Part shown: positions 6,001 through 12,000 of the stretch, piece by piece
How the letters are laid out: the number at the start of each line of letters is the position of its first letter
Position numbering within the stretch: position 1 is the first letter of the stretch
NCBI RefSeq assembly: GCF_055900595.2
Contig: NZ_CM148325.1
Length of the DNA: 64,000 nucleotides
Reading direction: 5' to 3' (one strand)
Position numbers: made by a program

Positions 6001-9000
6001 ACCTGAACGCGATTTGAATCAATATCAGCCAGTTAAGAACAACTAGAATAGTGGCATTTGGCATGCAACTTAACGGACTGGCAAAATCATGGCAGAGAAA
6101 AGAAGAACCCGCTGGCAGCGGCGGCCAGGCACGACGGGCGGCAAATTACCGTGGAATGACTGGCGCAATGCCACGACCTGGCGTAAAGCGACGCAATTAT
6201 TACTGTTGGCAATTAATATTTATATTGCCATCACGTTCTGGTATTGGGTGCGCTATTACGAAACGGCAGGTAGTACGACATTTGTCGCCAGGCCAGGAGG
6301 CATCGAAGGCTGGCTACCGATTGCCGGTCTGATGAATCTGAAATATAGCCTTGCAACAGGCCAGTTACCGTCCGTCCACGCCGCCGCGATGCTGTTATTG
6401 GTCGCTTTTATCGTCATCAGTCTATTACTAAAAAAGGCCTTTTGTTCATGGTTATGCCCGGTTGGTACGCTTTCTGAATTCATCGGCGATCTCGGTAACA
6501 AACTGTTTGGTCGGCAATTTGTCCTTCCCCGCTGTCTGGATATTCCTCTGCGCGGCGTGAAGTATTTGCTGTTGAGTTTTTTTCTCTATATCGCGTTATT
6601 GATGCCCGCTCAGGCTATTCACTATTTTATGTTGTCGCCCTACAGCGTGGTGATGGACGTTAAAATGCTCGATTTCTTTCGTCATATGGGGACCGCGACA
6701 TTAATCAGCGTGACCGTTTTGCTGATTGTCAGTCTGTTTATTCGCCATGCCTGGTGTCGTTATCTTTGCCCATATGGCGCGCTGATGGGCGTGGTTTCGC
6801 TATTGTCGCCGTTTAAGATTCGTCGCAATGCCGAAAGTTGTATCGACTGTGGCAAATGCGCAAAAAATTGCCCATCGCGGATCCCGGTCGATAAATTAAT
6901 TCAGGTACGAACCGTGGAATGTACCGGTTGTATGACTTGCGTAGAGTCATGTCCGGTAGCCTCAACATTGACCTTTTCACTGCAAAAACCTGCGGCAAAT
7001 AAAAAAGCCTTTGCGTTGTCTGGCTGGTTAATGACGCTACTGGTTCTGGGGATTATGTTTGCGGTGATTGGTTACGCAATGTATGCGGGAGTATGGCAAA
7101 GCCCGGTGCCGGAGGAATTGTACCGACGCTTAATTCCGCAAGCGCCAATGATTGGTCACTAAATTAGCAACAAGCGGAACATCACCTCGCACGGGGTGAT
7201 GTTCACAAAATCACATTATTTTGATTTTGACATCATAGCTTTCAAGCCCGGTCATTTTTTCTCGTGCGGTGAAGCGAATTTCAGAGACTTCTTTCCCTGT
7301 ATTCTTGTTCAGCTCGGCGATTTTTTGCGCGATAAAGTCAGCGATTTCCGTTTCGGCTTGTTTTTTTAACTCTTCAATATTCACTGTTAACCTCTTCTGG
7401 TCTTAAAAGACAGCAACACGCCAGTAAGGTGTTGGTTCCCGGTCCCCTGGTCAGGTAAGAAATGTTATAAGCCATCTCCCCGAAAGATTCAATAATCAAC
7501 AGGTTATCGCTTACTATACATACAGCGTTGAAGAAAAATAAGGCAGATATAAAAAAGGCTCCACGAGGGAGCCTGATCTTATTTTGTGAAATCCAGCGGC
7601 GCATGGTCAGTGCGTATTTGCAGCGCGACGTTATCAAAGGTGATCATCGTCGATTTACAAAAAATACACTTTGCCCCTAAAGGATTTCGCTCCGTCACAT
7701 CGAATGCCGATGTGCGGTACTGTGAACCATGACAACATGGACAGCGGAAATGGAGATGTTGAGTAATAACGGCAACCTTAGAGCGTAACAACGTTCGCTG
7801 CCGCGGGACCACGTTGCCCCTGCTCAATAGAAAATTCAACTTTCTGATTTTCGTTCAGCGTGCGGAATTCATTGCTCTGGATGGCAGTGAAATGGACGAA
7901 AACGTCTTTGCTGCCATCATCAGGAGTGATAAAGCCAAAACCTTTATCTGCGTTAAACCATTTTACTAAACCAGTCATTTTATTAGACATATTTTACTTC
8001 CTTCATTTTGGGCCTTTCGGCAAACAGGGCTTTAATACAGAAACTACTTAGTGTTCAGGAGAGAGACTCAAAAGAAGGGGATAATGCCTGATAATGAGAA
8101 CTGCTTTAGTAAACTACTTTGTATGCTGTCTGTCTTTCAAACCGACGCAGCTATTAACGCATGATAATTGAGATTAAGCAAATTTTATTTTAGCCGTCCG
8201 GCGGTCTTAAATATCGCTGGCTTTATTTTATTAACCCCGTATAGTGCAGCGCAGTATTTTCAGTAAGGAATTTGTTTGTCCCGTAAAATGACAGGAATTG
8301 TCAAAACCTTTGATCGCAAAAGCGGCAAAGGATTCATTATCCCCTCCGACGGTCGTAAAGAAGTCCAGGTCCATATTTCCGCATTCACTCCCCGCGATGC
8401 AGAAGTGCTTATACCAGGATTACGCGTGGAATTTTGCCGCGTAAATGGCCTGCGTGGACCAACAGCGGCAAATGTTTATCTCTCTTAATATGACGCTGCT
8501 TGTTTAAAACTGACTGGTTTTATTGGAATAGATTAATAGTCAACACTACACATTATAACGCAAGTTACTTTTTCATCAAGAAACTAATACATTTGACCGA
8601 ATATCTCTGTACCTAATAGTTATAAACGCCACTTAACAGCCGGTTATAGTACCATTTGAAACTATATTACCAACAATAGTTAATAGCTTTCTCAACAATT
8701 TTCTTATCTTTAATTTATATTTTTCTAAGATTTATCTTATGCCCACGAGTCGTATTTCCAGAGGGAAATCGTTAACAATCCTATATTTCCCTCTGCGCGC
8801 CTTTCCTACCCGCAGTATATAGTGCAAGCGGTATGAGGAAAGGGAGATTTCACAAGGATGTTATACTCAAAGTAGATAATTCTGATCTCAAGCGTACGTA
8901 TTGTCCATGCGATGAATAAAGGAAAAGTTATGAAACACAAGTTTTCTGCAATCCTTATGGCCTTCATGTTGACGACGCCAGCTGCGTTTGCTGCACCAGA

Positions 9001-12000
9001 AGCAGCAAACGGGACCGAGGCAACGACGGGTACTACTGGCACCACAACGACCACTACTGGTGCCACTACGACTGCTGCTACCACCGGTGGCGTAGCTGCT
9101 GGCGCGGTCGGCACAGCGACTGTTGTCGGTGTGGCAACGGCTGTTGGTGTGGCGACGTTGGCAGTTGTTGCAGCAAATGACAGTGGCGATGGCGGTTCTC
9201 ATAACACCTCAACCACCACGTCCACTACGCGCTAATACCACTTTAACGCGTCGAAATTAAAGTTAAATGATACCCGGTTGCGATATTCGTACCGGGCTTT
9301 AGAGATTTGCATTTTTTTAATTAACCTTTCAAGGATTAAAGGTGCGCCCTCTTATTTTATCAATTTTCGCACTATTTCTTGCGGGATGTACGCACAGCCA
9401 GCAAAGTATGGTCGATACATTTCGCGCCAGCCTATTCGATAATCAGGATATCACCGTAGCGGATCAGCAGATCCAGGCGTTGCCTTATTCCACGATGTAT
9501 TTACGCCTTAATGAAGGGCAACGAATCTTTGTGGTACTGGGATATATAGAACAAGAACAAAGCAAATGGTTATCCCAGGATAACGCCATGCTGGTTACCC
9601 ACAATGGACGTCTTTTAAAAACCGTCAAACTTAATAATAATCTGCTGGAAGTGACAAATTCCGGGCAGGACCCTCTGCGTAACGCGCTGGCAATAAAAGA
9701 CGGCAGCCGCTGGACGCGCGATATTCTCTGGAGTGAAGACAATCATTTTCGCTCTGCGACCCTGAGTTCCACTTTTTCCTTTGCTGGATTAGAGACGCTG
9801 AATATTGCGGGTCGCGATGTGCTGTGTAATGTCTGGCAGGAAGAGGTGACTTCCACGCTGCCAGAAAAACAGTGGCAAAACACATTCTGGGTCGATTCGG
9901 CTACTGGCCAGGTTCGTCAAAGTCGGCAAATGTTAGGCGCAGGGGTTATTCCCGTAGAAATGACGTTTCTTAAACCCGCACCATGAATAAATTACTGTCG
10001 TATTTCATTGCCAGCGTACTTTACGTAATGACACCCCATGCCTTTGCGCAAGGAACGGTGACTATTTATCTGCCTGGCGAACAACAGCCCCTTTCCGTTG
10101 GCCCCGTGGAGAATGTTGTCCAGTTGGTGACACAACCGCAACTGCGCGATCGCCTCTGGTGGCCTGGAGTCTTGCTGACCGACTCCGCGGCGAAAGCTAA
10201 AGCGCTTAAAGACTACCAACATGTCATGGCACAGCTTGCTTCCTGGGAAGTAGAAGCTGACGACGATGTGACGGCAACGATTTAATCCGTGCGCCAGCAG
10301 TTACTCAATCTCAATATCACTGGTCGCTTACCAGTCAAACTGGACCCTGATTTTGTGCGAGTGGATGAGAACAGCAATCCCCCGCTGGTCGGGGACTATA
10401 CGCTCTATACCGTACAGCGCCCAGTGACTATTACTCTGCTGGGTGCGGTTTCTGGGGCTGGGCAATTGCCCTGGCTGGCAGGCCGTAGCGTTACCGATTA
10501 TCTGCAAGATCACACCCGTCTTGCAGGCGCGGACAAGAATAACGTTATGGTGATTACGCCTGAGGGTGAGACTGTCGTCGCCCCTGTTGCCCTGTGGAAT
10601 AAAAGACATGTGGAACCACCGCCTGGCAGCCAGCTTTGGTTGGGCTTTTCTGCGCATGTACTGCCCGAAAAATATGCTGATTTAAATGACCAGATTGTGT
10701 CTGTTTTAACGCAACGTGTTCCTGACTGATGAAGAAGAACTCTTATCTTTTAAGCTGCCTGGCCATTGCCGTCTCCAGTGCCTGTCATGCTGAAGTATTC
10801 ACCTACCCGGATCCACTGGGGTCGTCGCAATCAGACTTTGGCGGCACAGGATTGTTGCAGATGCCAAATGCGCGCATCGCACCGGAAGGTGAATTCAGCG
10901 TCAACTACCGGGATAACGATCAATACCGTTTCTACTCCACGTCCGTGGCGCTGTTCCCATGGCTGGAAGGCACCATTCGTTATACGGATGTGCGCACACG
11001 CAAATATAGCCAGTGAGAAGATTTCAGCGGCGATCAGTCATACAAAGACAAATCTTTCGATTTTAAACTTCGCCTGTGGGAAGAAGGTTACTGGCTACCG
11101 CAAGTGGCGTTTGGTAAACGTGATATTGCTGGTACGGGTCTGTTTGACGGTGAATATCTGGTGGCCAGCAAGCAAGCGGGGCCATTTGATTTCACCCTCG
11201 GGATGGCGTGGGGCTACGCCGGTAATGCGGGCAATATTACCAACCCGTTTTGCCGGGTGAGCGATAAATATTGTCATCGTGCAGAGTCTCACGATGCGGG
11301 AGATATCAGCTTTAGCGATATCTTTCGTGGTCCGGCGTCCATCTTTGGCGGCATTGAGTATCAAACGCCGTGGAATCCTCTGCGTCTGAAACTCGAATAC
11401 GACGGCAACAATTACCAGAATGATTTTGCGGGCAAATTGCCGCAGGCAAGTCATTTCAATTTCGGTGCTGTGTATCGTGCTGCCAGCTGGGCAGATCTTA
11501 ACCTTAGCTACGAGCGCGGTAACACATTTATGTTTGGCTTCACATTACGGACCAATTTCAACGATCTGCGCCCTGCCCTGCGCGATACGCCAAAACCGGC
11601 GTATCAACCTGCGCCGGAATCTGAAGGATTGCAGTACACCACAGTAGCGAACCAACTTACCGCGTTGAAGTATAACGCGGGCTTTGACGCGCCAGAAATT
11701 CAGCTGCGCGATAAGACGCTATATATGTCTGGTCAGCAATACAAATACCGTGACTCTCGTGAAGCGGTCGATCGTGCCAACCGGATTCTGGTGAATAACC
11801 TGCCGCAAGGCGTTGAGAAGATTAGCGTGACGCAAAAGCGCGAGCATATGGCGATGGTGACGACCGAAACCGACGTAGCCAGCCTGCGCAAACAGCTCGC
11901 CGGTACCGCGCCTGGTAAAGCAGAGCCACTGCAACAACAACGTGTTGAAGCTGAAGATCTTTCTGCCTTTGGTCGGGGCTACCGTATTCGTGAAGATCGC

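What the first reader, a model, noticed from the sequence alone, without database searches (positions are those of the whole stretch)
8930..9235. GfcA is an extreme Thr/Gly/Ala/Val low-complexity protein
After a signal peptide, residues about 30-100 are almost entirely T, G, A and V (TTGTTGTTTTTTGATTTAATTGG...VGTATVVGVATAVGVATLAVVAA...). The underlying DNA is a run of acN/ggN/gcN codons that could be prone to slippage, and it creates two long antisense shadow ORFs. Such sequence is typical of heavily O-glycosylated or mucin-like surface proteins.
Basis: seen in the sequence. Interest (0 to 1): 0.25.

Follow-up and report, generated by a model that had tools for sequence, protein, structure and literature searches.

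The report
gfcA: known threonine-rich capsule-operon protein
This is the already-known E. coli gene gfcA, a small exported threonine/glycine/alanine/valine-rich protein needed for the O-antigen (group 4) capsule. Its odd composition is real and conserved at the protein level, but it is not an unstable slippage repeat.

Summary
Window 8930-9235 (+) encodes the 101-aa GfcA, first gene of gfcABCDE-etp-etk. It has a classical Sec signal peptide (1-21, AFA|AP). Residues 30-100 are 85% T/G/A/V, and two antisense ORFs of 102 and 104 aa overlap the gene.

The low-complexity stretch is really three parts:
- a Thr-rich linker (about 22-53);
- a 30-residue Gly/Ala/Val hydrophobic segment (53-82);
- an acidic/Gly turn plus poly-Thr tail (83-101).

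Small ORFs upstream of gfcB/yjbF homologues in 62 of 68 Enterobacterales loci share this architecture. The core and tail are conserved, while the linker varies from 4 to 30 residues and is longest in E. coli. GfcA is therefore a divergent relative of YjbE (Pfam PF11106) that scores below Pfam's threshold.

The slippage idea fails. Thr codons are mixed and the longest exact repeated word is 8 nt. Of 99 sampled rows from 3,607 gfcA-positive complete E. coli genomes, 96 span exactly 306 nt; the exceptions are IS1 or IS5 insertions. dN/dS is 0.06-0.11 in five of the six pairs among the E. coli/window alleles.

O-glycosylation remains published speculation, untested here. In this window gfcC and gfcD carry premature stop codons, so the operon is probably inactive. 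The feature is already known and of low interest.

The parts
8919..8923 (+). Shine-Dalgarno-like AAGGA, 6 nt before the gfcA ATG
   Evidence: Read directly from the sequence. This start matches the RefSeq gfcA annotation. The upstream in-frame ATG at 8912 listed is not the annotated start.
8930..9235 (+). gfcA coding sequence (101 codons plus TAA)
   Evidence: dN/dS is 0.06-0.11 in five of the six pairs among the E. coli/window alleles.
8930..8992 (+). Sec signal peptide, residues 1-21 (MKHKFSAILMAFMLTTPAAFA | AP)
   Evidence: Sequence inspection by the -3/-1 rule. SignalP result reported for the K-12 sequence in PMC10278209. The peptide is conserved across the family. The window allele has F5 where other E. 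coli have L5.
8993..9088 (+). Low-complexity Thr/Gly/Ala linker, residues 22-53; predicted disordered; variable in length across the family
   Evidence: Residues 30-59 are 50% Thr. AF2 pLDDT is 35-41 in this part. Family linker length is 4-30 residues and E. coli's is the longest.
9032..9072 (+). Decayed 21-nt x2 tandem duplication encoding TTGTTTT/TTGATTT
   Evidence: TRF reports period 21, 2.0 copies and 85% matches. E. albertii GfcA lacks 5 residues here, which fits one old duplication or indel rather than ongoing slippage.
9086..9175 (+). Conserved Gly/Ala/Val hydrophobic segment, residues 53-82 (GGVAAGAVGTATVVGVATAVGVATLAVVAA), with a small-xxx-small face
   Evidence: The Kyte-Doolittle 19-mer maximum is 2.16 at residues 63-82. 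AF2 predicts a helix at 63-83 with low confidence. The segment aligns to the family core.
9176..9232 (+). Conserved acidic/Gly turn plus poly-Thr tail, residues 83-101 (NDSGDGGSHNTSTTTSTTR)
   Evidence: It is collinear with the ...GGGDG(S/A)NTGTTTTTTTSTTR tail of YjbE-type proteins.
8806..9114 (-). Antisense shadow ORF (102 aa), not a gene
   Evidence: The open antisense frame is a by-product of composition.
8888..9202 (-). Antisense shadow ORF (104 aa), not a gene
   Evidence: One antisense frame shares its wobble position with the sense frame, so its dN/dS mirrors the sense value.
9236..9341 (+). 106-nt gfcA-gfcB spacer with a hairpin at 9273-9296
   Evidence: The fold has z = -1.26 and no canonical terminator was found. 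A spacer of 71-247 nt is present in all family loci, whereas gfcB/C/D overlap one another.
9342..9986 (+). gfcB (YjbF-family lipoprotein), intact
   Evidence: Pfam PF11102, E = 4e-69.
9983..10729 (+). gfcC with a premature stop (K101*, AAA to TAA at 10286-10288)
10729..12825 (+). gfcD (YjbH family) with a premature stop (W96*, TGG to TGA at 11014-11016)

Best explanation
Window 8930-9235 is gfcA, a real and already-named gene.

It encodes a small Sec-exported protein of the GfcA/YjbE family. This is the fourth conserved component of the GfcABCD/YjbEFGH module that works with an outer-membrane double-barrel protein (GfcD/YjbH) in capsule or exopolysaccharide surface assembly.

After cleavage at AFA|AP, the 80-residue mature protein has three parts:
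1. A disordered Thr/Gly/Ala spacer. Its length and composition drift between lineages, and it gained one 7-residue duplication in the E. coli lineage.
2. A conserved Gly/Ala/Val 'small-xxx-small' hydrophobic segment. I infer that it holds the protein in a membrane or docks it to a partner.
3. A conserved acidic/Gly turn followed by a poly-Thr tail.

The extreme composition is kept at the protein level by purifying selection on scrambled codons. It is not a slippage-prone or phase-variable repeat. The long antisense ORFs are by-products of the composition.

Shown: gene identity, export signal, family architecture and synteny, absence of length polymorphism, and purifying selection.
From the literature: gfcA is required for the capsule and complements in trans.
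Inferred: the roles of the spacer, hydrophobic segment and tail, and where the mature protein ends up.
For: Identity and context:
- RefSeq annotation and synteny cspH-gfcA-gfcB-gfcC-gfcD-gfcE-etp-etk.

Family:
- 62 of 68 loci holding a gfcB/yjbF homologue have a small ORF of 71-101 aa just upstream with the same architecture.
- Pfam YjbE (PF11106) matches 21 of 26 representatives at E <= 1, and K-12 YjbE at 113.6 bits.
- A profile built from the non-Escherichia members scores the window's GfcA at 22.8 bits. 500 shuffles of the mature part gave -9.4 +/- 4.5, with a maximum of 8.7.
- hhalign of the GfcA-type alignment against the YjbE-type alignment gives 98.1% probability, E = 7e-14 and 77 collinear columns.

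Selection and stability:
- dN/dS is 0.06-0.11 in five of the six pairs among the E. coli/window alleles, with dS up to 0.17 and no indels. The sixth pair differs at only two sites.
- 96 of 99 sampled genome rows span exactly 306 nt.
- Codons are scrambled and TRF finds one decayed 21-nt x2 repeat.

Structure:
- AF2 with the family alignment gives helices only at residues 4-14 and 63-83 and disorder elsewhere, at low confidence.
- Solan 2021 (PMC8346858) also calls GfcA 'natively unstructured'.

Function, from the literature:
- An EPEC gfcA deletion loses the capsule and is complemented in trans by a gfcA plasmid (PMC3853201).
- gfcA is 30% Thr and described as an 'inner membrane or secreted protein' (PMC8592465).
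Against: - The window's GfcA does not reach Pfam's YjbE gathering score: there is no hit at E <= 1.
- BLASTP finds no alignment between GfcA and K-12 YjbE.
- A profile built only from YjbE-type sequences separates GfcA from shuffles weakly; 16 of 1000 shuffles score at least as well.
- Low-complexity sequence and signal peptides inflate profile-profile scores.
- The role of the hydrophobic segment is uncertain. A rough sum on the Hessa biological hydrophobicity scale (values recalled from memory) gives about +1 kcal/mol for GfcA and a family median of +1.7.
- The flank after the segment is acidic rather than positive-inside.
- E. coli YjbE's best 19-mer has a Kyte-Doolittle mean of only 1.24, so a transmembrane anchor is not clearly a family-wide feature.
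- An AF2 model of mature GfcA fused by a linker to GfcB showed no ordering of the GfcA part, with pLDDT 26-43.
- In this window gfcC and gfcD carry premature stops, so the gene may have no working partners here.
Confidence: 0.6

Rival explanations
1. GfcA is a mucin-like carrier. Its Thr residues are O-glycosylated, for example with O-antigen, in the periplasm. The glycoprotein is then passed to GfcD and displayed as a protein anchor of the capsule.'s speculation.
For: - The protein is 28% Thr, has a signal peptide and a disordered linker.
- A poly-Thr tail is conserved across the family.
- The speculation is published in PMC8592465.
- gfcA is required for the capsule.
- The anchor of the group 4 capsule is unknown.
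Against: - No glycosylation has been shown.
- Pfam found no glycosyltransferase or O-oligosaccharyltransferase domain in gfcB to gfcE.
- There is no Pro and little Ser, and no repeat units as in mucin-type domains.
- The N-terminal Thr-rich linker is replaced by Ala/Gly/Gln/Glu or Ser-rich sequence in YjbE-type relatives.
- A waaL mutant still has some capsule (PMC3853201), so the only known O-antigen ligase is not strictly needed.
Confidence: 0.13
2. GfcA/YjbE is the polypeptide cargo of the FapF-like N-terminal barrel of GfcD/YjbH. It is fully translocated to the periplasm, exported to the surface, and its Gly/Ala/Val core self-associates, possibly amyloid-like, to anchor or nucleate the polysaccharide layer.
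For: - The N-terminal barrel of GfcD/YjbH is assigned to the FapF amyloid-transporter family, and secretion of amyloidogenic polypeptides was proposed, in PMC8346858 and PMC9603273.
- GfcA is the only small exported, unstructured protein encoded in the module.
- The hydrophobic segment is only marginally hydrophobic, is rich in beta-branched residues and Gly, and lacks a positive-inside flank.
- gfcA is always separated from gfcB by a spacer, whereas gfcBCD overlap one another (PMC8592465). This is compatible with a different stoichiometry.
Against: - There are no Fap- or curli-type imperfect repeats.
- A sequence search of GfcD against solved structures did not retrieve FapF, so the barrel assignment rests on the literature.
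- The annotation and Kyte-Doolittle hydropathy favour an inner-membrane helix.
- There are no localisation data.
Confidence: 0.15
3. The gene is a contingency locus. Slipped-strand mispairing in the acN/ggN/gcN run changes the repeat length or the reading frame and switches the capsule on and off.
For: - The codon run is low in complexity, and alternative frames are open, so frameshifted products are long.
- The protein database holds rare frameshifted or 5-residue-deleted variants such as P0002, P0008 and P0024.
Against: - The longest exact repeated word is 8 nt, and no codon is repeated more than twice in a row.
- 96 of 99 sampled genome rows have exactly 306 nt, and the exceptions are IS insertions.
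- Alleles differing at 5% of nucleotides have no indels.
- The variants in the database are represented by one or a few short contigs and may be assembly errors.
Confidence: 0.02
4. gfcA acts mainly in cis as a Thr-codon-rich leader ORF that tunes expression of gfcBCDE, rather than through its protein product.
For: - It is the first gene of the operon and has 28 Thr codons.
- A spacer with a hairpin precedes gfcB.
Against: - The deletion is complemented in trans from a plasmid.
- The signal peptide and the C-terminal protein module are conserved across genera, while the Thr content of the linker is not.
- The hairpin is not significant (z = -1.26) and is not a canonical terminator.
Confidence: 0.03

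Closest known systems
[quoted passage not shown]
   Same: It is the same gene at the same locus and has the same 101-aa length. The window's protein differs from the K-12 protein at three residues: L5F, T26A and T50A. The EPEC orthologue is required for the group 4 capsule.
   Different: - The window's allele is not identical to any complete E. coli genome in the collection; the best match is 98.0% at the DNA level.
- There is no IS1 upstream, unlike K-12.
- The downstream gfcC and gfcD carry nonsense codons.
YjbE of E. coli K-12 (Pfam PF11106, 'exopolysaccharide production protein YjbE'), first gene of yjbEFGH
   Same: - It holds the paralogous position upstream of yjbF/G/H.
- It shares the signal peptide, low-complexity region, small hydrophobic patch, GGGDGSN turn and poly-Thr tail.
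- It is collinear with GfcA in profile-profile alignment.
   Different: - It is 80 aa long with a Ser/Ala-rich linker rather than a Thr-rich one.
- Its hydrophobic core is much weaker, with a Kyte-Doolittle 19-mer maximum of 1.24 against 2.16.
- There is no pairwise BLASTP similarity.
- GfcA does not reach Pfam's threshold for the family.
Eukaryotic and bacterial mucin-like Ser/Thr/Pro-rich O-glycosylated domains
   Same: High Thr content, predicted disorder, and location after a signal peptide.
   Different: There is no Pro, few Ser and no tandem repeat units. Pfam found no glycosyltransferase domain in gfcB to gfcE, and glycosylation has not been demonstrated.
Secreted amyloid subunits with dedicated outer-membrane transporters (FapC/FapF, CsgA/CsgG)
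   Same: GfcA is a small Sec-exported, unstructured protein encoded next to an outer-membrane barrel that the literature assigns to the FapF family.
   Different: There are no imperfect Q/N/G repeats and no evidence of fibres. This is a resemblance in how it might work, not a family membership.

Membership tests
GfcA/YjbE family (Pfam PF11106 YjbE) | Scores at or above Pfam's gathering threshold (27.9 bits) | tested here: not met
   The window's GfcA has no hit at E <= 1. E. albertii GfcA scores 9.3 bits, GfcA-type relatives score 9.7-27.6 bits and K-12 YjbE scores 113.6 bits.
GfcA/YjbE family (Pfam PF11106 YjbE) | Small ORF immediately upstream of yjbF/gfcB, gfcC/yjbG and yjbH/gfcD homologues | tested here: met
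   Pfam assigns YjbF, GfcC_N/C and YjbH to the next three genes. The same arrangement is seen in 62 of 68 loci.
GfcA/YjbE family (Pfam PF11106 YjbE) | Collinear architecture: signal peptide, low-complexity region, Gly/Ala/Val core, acidic/Gly turn, poly-Thr tail | tested here: met
   Alignment A3. The custom profile gives 22.8 bits against a shuffle maximum of 8.7. hhalign gives 98.1% probability and E = 7e-14. The YjbE-type-only profile is weaker, with 16 of 1000 shuffles scoring at least as well.
GfcA/YjbE family (Pfam PF11106 YjbE) | Needed for capsule or exopolysaccharide production | not testable with these tools
   Literature only: an EPEC gfcA deletion loses the capsule and is complemented in trans (PMC3853201).
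Slipped-strand (contingency) repeat locus | Perfect or near-perfect tandem nucleotide repeats | tested here: not met
   TRF finds only a 21-nt x2 repeat with 85% matches. The longest exact repeated word is 8 nt and the longest run of one codon is 2.
Slipped-strand (contingency) repeat locus | Repeat-length polymorphism among strains | tested here: not met
   96 of 99 sampled rows span 306 nt, and the exceptions are IS5 and IS1 insertions. This is a sample, not a full census.
Mucin-like O-glycosylated surface protein | Pro/Thr/Ser-rich tandem repeat domain | tested here: not met
   Residues 30-100 have no Pro and 4 Ser, and there are no repeat units beyond one decayed 7-residue duplication.
Mucin-like O-glycosylated surface protein | Glycosyltransferase or O-oligosaccharyltransferase encoded with it | tested here: not met
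   Pfam domains of gfcB to gfcE are YjbF, GfcC, YjbH and Wza/SLBB. etp and etk were not scanned with Pfam; RefSeq annotates their counterparts as a tyrosine phosphatase and kinase. Enzymes encoded elsewhere in the genome are not excluded.
Mucin-like O-glycosylated surface protein | Glycans attached to the protein | not testable with these tools
   No published demonstration was found.
Bitopic inner-membrane protein (the current annotation) | Uncharged hydrophobic segment of at least 19 residues | tested here: met
   Residues 53-82 are uncharged, and the Kyte-Doolittle 19-mer maximum is 2.16. AF2 predicts a helix at 63-83 with low confidence.
Bitopic inner-membrane protein (the current annotation) | Positive-inside flank and transmembrane competence conserved in relatives | tested here: inconclusive
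   The flank is NDSGDGG, acidic, with a single terminal Arg. The rough Hessa-scale sum is +1 kcal/mol, with a family median of +1.7. K-12 YjbE has a Kyte-Doolittle maximum of 1.24.
Cargo of a FapF-type transporter | Adjacent FapF-family barrel | tested here: inconclusive
   phmmer of GfcD against PDB sequences did not find FapF. The assignment comes from PMC8346858 and PMC9603273.

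The most novel reading that the evidence does not exclude
GfcA/YjbE proteins are not inner-membrane proteins. Instead they are the exported polypeptide cargo of the FapF-like N-terminal barrel of GfcD/YjbH. Their conserved Gly/Ala/Val core and poly-Thr tail would form the long-sought surface anchor or nucleator, possibly glycan-linked or amyloid-like, that holds O-antigen capsule polysaccharide on the cell. The Thr-rich linker would act as a lineage-specific spacer.
Probability: 0.15. Interest if true: 0.65.

Novelty: already known. Interest (0 to 1): 0.15.

Why it matters
The functions of gfcABCD and yjbEFGH, and the way the group 4 (O-antigen) capsule is held on the cell, are still unresolved. 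GfcA is the least characterised component.

This analysis adds three points:
- The conserved part of the family is the hydrophobic core plus the poly-Thr tail, not the eye-catching Thr-rich linker.
- The gene is stable in length within E. coli.
- Escherichia GfcA escapes the Pfam YjbE model.

These points narrow which mutants and localisation experiments would be informative. They do not change the picture that this is a known, annotated gene.

Tried and rejected
1. Protein-database searches with GfcA. The collections do not hold even the canonical K-12 GfcA sequence. They return mostly frameshifted or truncated variants, so they could not be used to measure length variation. I used DNA searches of complete E. 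coli genomes instead.
2. AF2 of GfcA alone. Mean pLDDT was 47.7, too low for fold searches, so none were run.
3. AF2 of mature GfcA joined by a linker to mature GfcB, with a paired alignment of 25 loci. This tested whether GfcB, described in PMC8592465 as having a LolA-like fold, orders the hydrophobic segment. GfcB modelled well (pLDDT 83-97), but GfcA stayed at 26-43. There is no support, and the tool gives no interface metrics, so the result is inconclusive.
4. Searches against solved structures. The family profile gave only insignificant hits to V-ATPase c-ring subunits (E = 0.37). GfcD gave no FapF hit.
5. NCBIfam. The weak 'WGxxGxxG family' hits (17 bits against a cutoff of 35) cover the signal peptide and were rejected.
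6. A terminator or attenuator in the gfcA-gfcB spacer. No canonical terminator was found and the fold is not significant.
7. dN/dS as evidence against the antisense ORFs. One antisense frame shares the wobble position with the sense frame and gives the same ratio, so this test cannot discriminate. The antisense ORFs are rejected because the frame is open family-wide for compositional reasons and because of all the evidence for the sense gene.
8. A serotype-specific role for gfcA, proposed for soft-rot bacteria (bioRxiv 391854). In E. coli, 2,512 of 3,607 genomes are at least 99% identical to the K-12 allele, and O157:H7 strains differ from it by only 2%. This argues against serotype specificity in this species; serotypes were not tabulated.

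Full report
WHAT IS THERE

Window 8930-9235 (+) is a 306-nt ORF, preceded by AAGGA six nucleotides upstream of the ATG. It encodes a 101-aa protein:

MKHKFSAILMAFMLTTPAAFA|APEAANGTEATTGTTGTTTTTTGATTTAATTGGVAAGAVGTATVVGVATAVGVATLAVVAANDSGDGGSHNTSTTTSTTR.

It lies between cspH (8276-8488) and ORFs that Pfam assigns as follows:
- YjbF/GfcB (9342-9986);
- GfcC (9983-10729);
- YjbH/GfcD (10729-12825);
- Wza-type GfcE (12850-14010).

etp and etk follow (named by synteny with a RefSeq record).

The window's own allele is not in that collection. The best match is 98.0% for the gene and 98.3% for 4.8 kb. A 3.3-kb stretch identical to the window does occur in public assemblies.

CHECK OF THE OBSERVATION

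Composition is T 28, A 22, G 13 and V 9 of 101 residues. T+G+A+V is 85% over residues 30-100 and 97% over residues 30-59. Long open stretches elsewhere in the window average 28% and never exceed 51% in any 71-residue window. The binomial P is 6e-23.

The two antisense ORFs are real as ORFs: 8806-9114 (102 aa) and 8888-9202 (104 aa). They are a consequence of the codon set. One antisense frame has 0-1 stops in all 53 distinct family genes from many genera, while neighbouring ordinary genes have 2.4-4.2 stops per 101 codons in that frame.

ANATOMY

The 'T/G/A/V run' is not one thing. Hydropathy, the AF2 model (low confidence, mean pLDDT 47.7, helices only at 4-14 and 63-83) and the family alignment divide the protein into four parts:
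- a signal peptide (1-21): n-region MKHK, a 10-residue h-region, P at -5 and A-F-A at -3/-1;
- a Thr/Gly/Ala linker (about 22-53), predicted disordered;
- an uncharged 30-residue Gly/Ala/Val segment (53-82; Kyte-Doolittle 19-mer maximum 2.16), with small residues spaced every four positions;
- a polar tail, NDSGDGGSHNTSTTTSTTR.

A published SignalP run on the K-12 sequence gives a 21-residue Sec/SPI peptide with probability 0.996 (PMC10278209).

RELATIVES

An alignment of GfcB homologues was used to scan one genome per species. This yielded 62 loci, mostly Enterobacteriaceae and Erwiniaceae.

In 62 of the 68 loci held at that point, a small ORF of 71-101 aa lies 71-247 nt upstream of the gfcB/yjbF homologue. 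The misses are contig ends, an IS5 insertion and two ORFs missed by my pattern.

All of these ORFs share the same plan:
- M(K/R)K... signal peptide;
- a low-complexity linker of 4-30 residues;
- a Gly/Ala/Val/Ile/Leu core (median 29 residues);
- an acidic or Gly-rich turn, (N/S)D..GDG or GGGDG(S/A)N;
- a poly-Thr tail that usually ends in Arg (median 19 residues).

E. coli GfcA is the longest member, and the excess length is all in the linker. In Pantoea and Erwinia the linker is Ala/Gly/Gln/Glu-rich. In E. coli's own paralogue YjbE it is Ser/Ala-rich.

Pfam's YjbE model (PF11106) matches 21 of 26 representatives at E <= 1, and K-12 YjbE at 113.6 bits. It gives only 9-28 bits for GfcA-type proteins of other genera, and nothing for the window's GfcA. 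BLASTP finds no GfcA-YjbE alignment.

The relationship is nevertheless supported by three tests:
- A profile of the non-Escherichia members scores GfcA at 22.8 bits. 500 shuffles of the mature part gave -9.4 +/- 4.5, with a maximum of 8.7.
- A stricter profile of YjbE-type sequences only is weak; 16 of 1000 shuffles do as well.
- Profile-profile alignment of the GfcA-type set against the YjbE-type set is collinear over 77 columns, with probability 98.1% and E = 7e-14.

Together with the conserved gene order, I take GfcA to be a divergent YjbE-family member that formally fails the Pfam threshold. The high between-lineage variability of this locus and the conserved signal peptide were already reported for soft-rot bacteria (bioRxiv 391854).

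IS THE DNA SLIPPAGE-PRONE?

No.
- The 28 Thr codons are ACG 10, ACC 8, ACT 8 and ACA 2.
- No codon occurs more than twice in a row, and the longest exact repeated word in the gene is 8 nt.
- TRF finds one decayed 21-nt x2 repeat at 9032-9072 (85% matches), encoding TTGTTTT/TTGATTT.

E. albertii GfcA (94-96 aa) lacks five residues at this spot. A cryptic-clade Escherichia sp. has the full 101 aa. This fits one old duplication or indel, not ongoing instability.

Two searches listed rows at even steps through the 3,607 positive genomes. Of 99 rows, 96 span exactly 306 nt. The other three rows come from two genomes: one where IS5 has replaced most of the gene and one with IS1 inserted after nt 296.

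With the K-12 allele as query, only 27 genomes fall below 95% identity. This caps large indels at about 1%.

Four alleles that differ at up to 5% of nucleotides have no indels. In five of the six pairs among them dN/dS is 0.06-0.11; for the window against K-12 there are 12 synonymous and 3 non-synonymous differences. The sixth pair differs at only two sites. The low-complexity sequence is therefore maintained at the amino-acid level.

The protein databases contain rare frameshifted (109 aa) or 5-residue-deleted variants. These come from one or a few short contigs and may be assembly errors.

Real variation at this locus takes other forms:
- IS insertions (IS1 upstream of gfcA in K-12);
- loss of the whole operon, with cspH lying next to appA, in roughly a third of genomes.

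HOW IT PROBABLY WORKS

From the literature:
- Deleting gfcA in EPEC abolishes the group 4 capsule and alters O-antigen laddering, and a plasmid carrying gfcA restores both (PMC3853201). The product therefore acts in trans.
- GfcB and GfcC bind the outer-membrane protein GfcD (PMC8592465; PMC9603273).
- GfcD is predicted to have two barrels. The N-terminal barrel is assigned to the FapF family, and the C-terminal barrel is proposed to have a lateral gate for lipid-anchored polysaccharide (PMC8346858, PMC9603273 and bioRxiv 2023.12.04.565983).
- GfcA is described as 'inner membrane or secreted', 'natively unstructured' and 'entirely uncharacterized'. There is published speculation that it is modified with O-antigen and exported by GfcD.

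My inference is that GfcA is exported by Sec and processed. Its conserved core plus tail is the functional module, and the Thr-rich linker is a spacer of drifting length.

Where the mature protein ends up is open.

An inner-membrane helix is favoured by:
- the length and Kyte-Doolittle hydropathy of the segment;
- the AF2 helix at 63-83.

It is weakened by:
- a marginal Hessa-scale sum of about +1 kcal/mol, with a family median of +1.7 (scale values recalled from memory);
- an acidic rather than basic flank after the segment;
- E. coli YjbE, whose best 19-mer reaches only 1.24.

If the shared function does not need a transmembrane helix, the alternative becomes attractive. In that model the small protein is released to the periplasm and handled by GfcB/C/D, perhaps as cargo of the FapF-like barrel. 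I could not test this.

O-glycosylation is neither supported nor excluded:
- Pfam found no transferase domain in gfcB to gfcE.
- The linker lacks Pro and repeat units.
- It is the least conserved part of the family.
- The poly-Thr tail, by contrast, is conserved.

CONTEXT IN THIS WINDOW

gfcA is intact, with L5F in the signal peptide. gfcC has K101* (AAA to TAA, 10286-10288) and gfcD has W96* (TGG to TGA, 11014-11016), relative to a close E. coli strain and without any indels. The same truncated gfcC product is on record in many public assemblies, listed in 353 blocks of the collection. The capsule module is therefore probably non-functional in this lineage, while gfcA has not yet decayed.

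VERDICT

It is wrong on slippage and untested on glycosylation. The feature is a known, named gene whose Thr-richness is already in the literature and in its product name. Interest is low. The only reading with real upside is that GfcA/YjbE is the exported cargo or anchor of the GfcD/YjbH double barrel, which I put at about 15%.

Noticed in passing
window 9983-10729 and 10729-12825: gfcC carries a nonsense codon (K101*, TAA at 10286-10288). gfcD carries another (W96*, TGA at 11014-11016). Neither has indels relative to E. coli strain E200086. gfcE, etp and etk remain open. The group 4 capsule module looks inactivated in this lineage, and the same truncated GfcC product is on record in many public assemblies (listed in 353 blocks of the collection).
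   Followed up: partly
window 8489-8929; L001 715-1412: The cspH-gfcA intergenic region of the window has no IS element. K-12 carries IS1 there. Other strains carry IS5 replacing most of gfcA (L004) or IS1 inserted after nt 296 of gfcA (L072). IS traffic, not repeat slippage, is what disrupts this gene.
   Followed up: partly
E. coli genome collection: In roughly a third of complete E. coli genomes the whole gfcABCDE-etp-etk operon is cleanly absent, and cspH lies next to appA. In 7 of 24 evenly spaced rows only query positions 1-290 match.
   Followed up: no
protein collections: Neither the window's GfcA nor the canonical K-12 GfcA is present as an exact sequence in the 15-billion-protein collection. 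What is present are chimeric 109-aa products that switch into the open alternative frame at different points and end ...PLHANTALTRRN. It is unclear whether these are assembly errors or rare real frameshifts. Homology searches for this protein are unreliable for this reason.
   Followed up: no
window 9236-9341: gfcA is separated from gfcB by a 106-nt spacer containing a hairpin (9273-9296) followed by a T-rich stretch. In all family loci the spacer is 71-247 nt, whereas gfcB, gfcC and gfcD overlap one another. This may set a different expression level for GfcA, but the fold is not significant and it is not a canonical terminator.
   Followed up: partly
window 8930-9235 compared with L001 1501-1806: Synonymous divergence between the window's allele and the K-12 allele of gfcA is high (dS = 0.15). 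The gene is 95.1% identical, against about 97% for the surrounding 4.8 kb. This suggests old allelic lineages or recombination at this locus.
   Followed up: no
L069 12265-14445: In the E. coli strain closest to the window (E200086), gfcC and gfcD are intact but etk is annotated as a pseudogene with an internal stop. Different lineages appear to have inactivated the operon at different genes.
   Followed up: no
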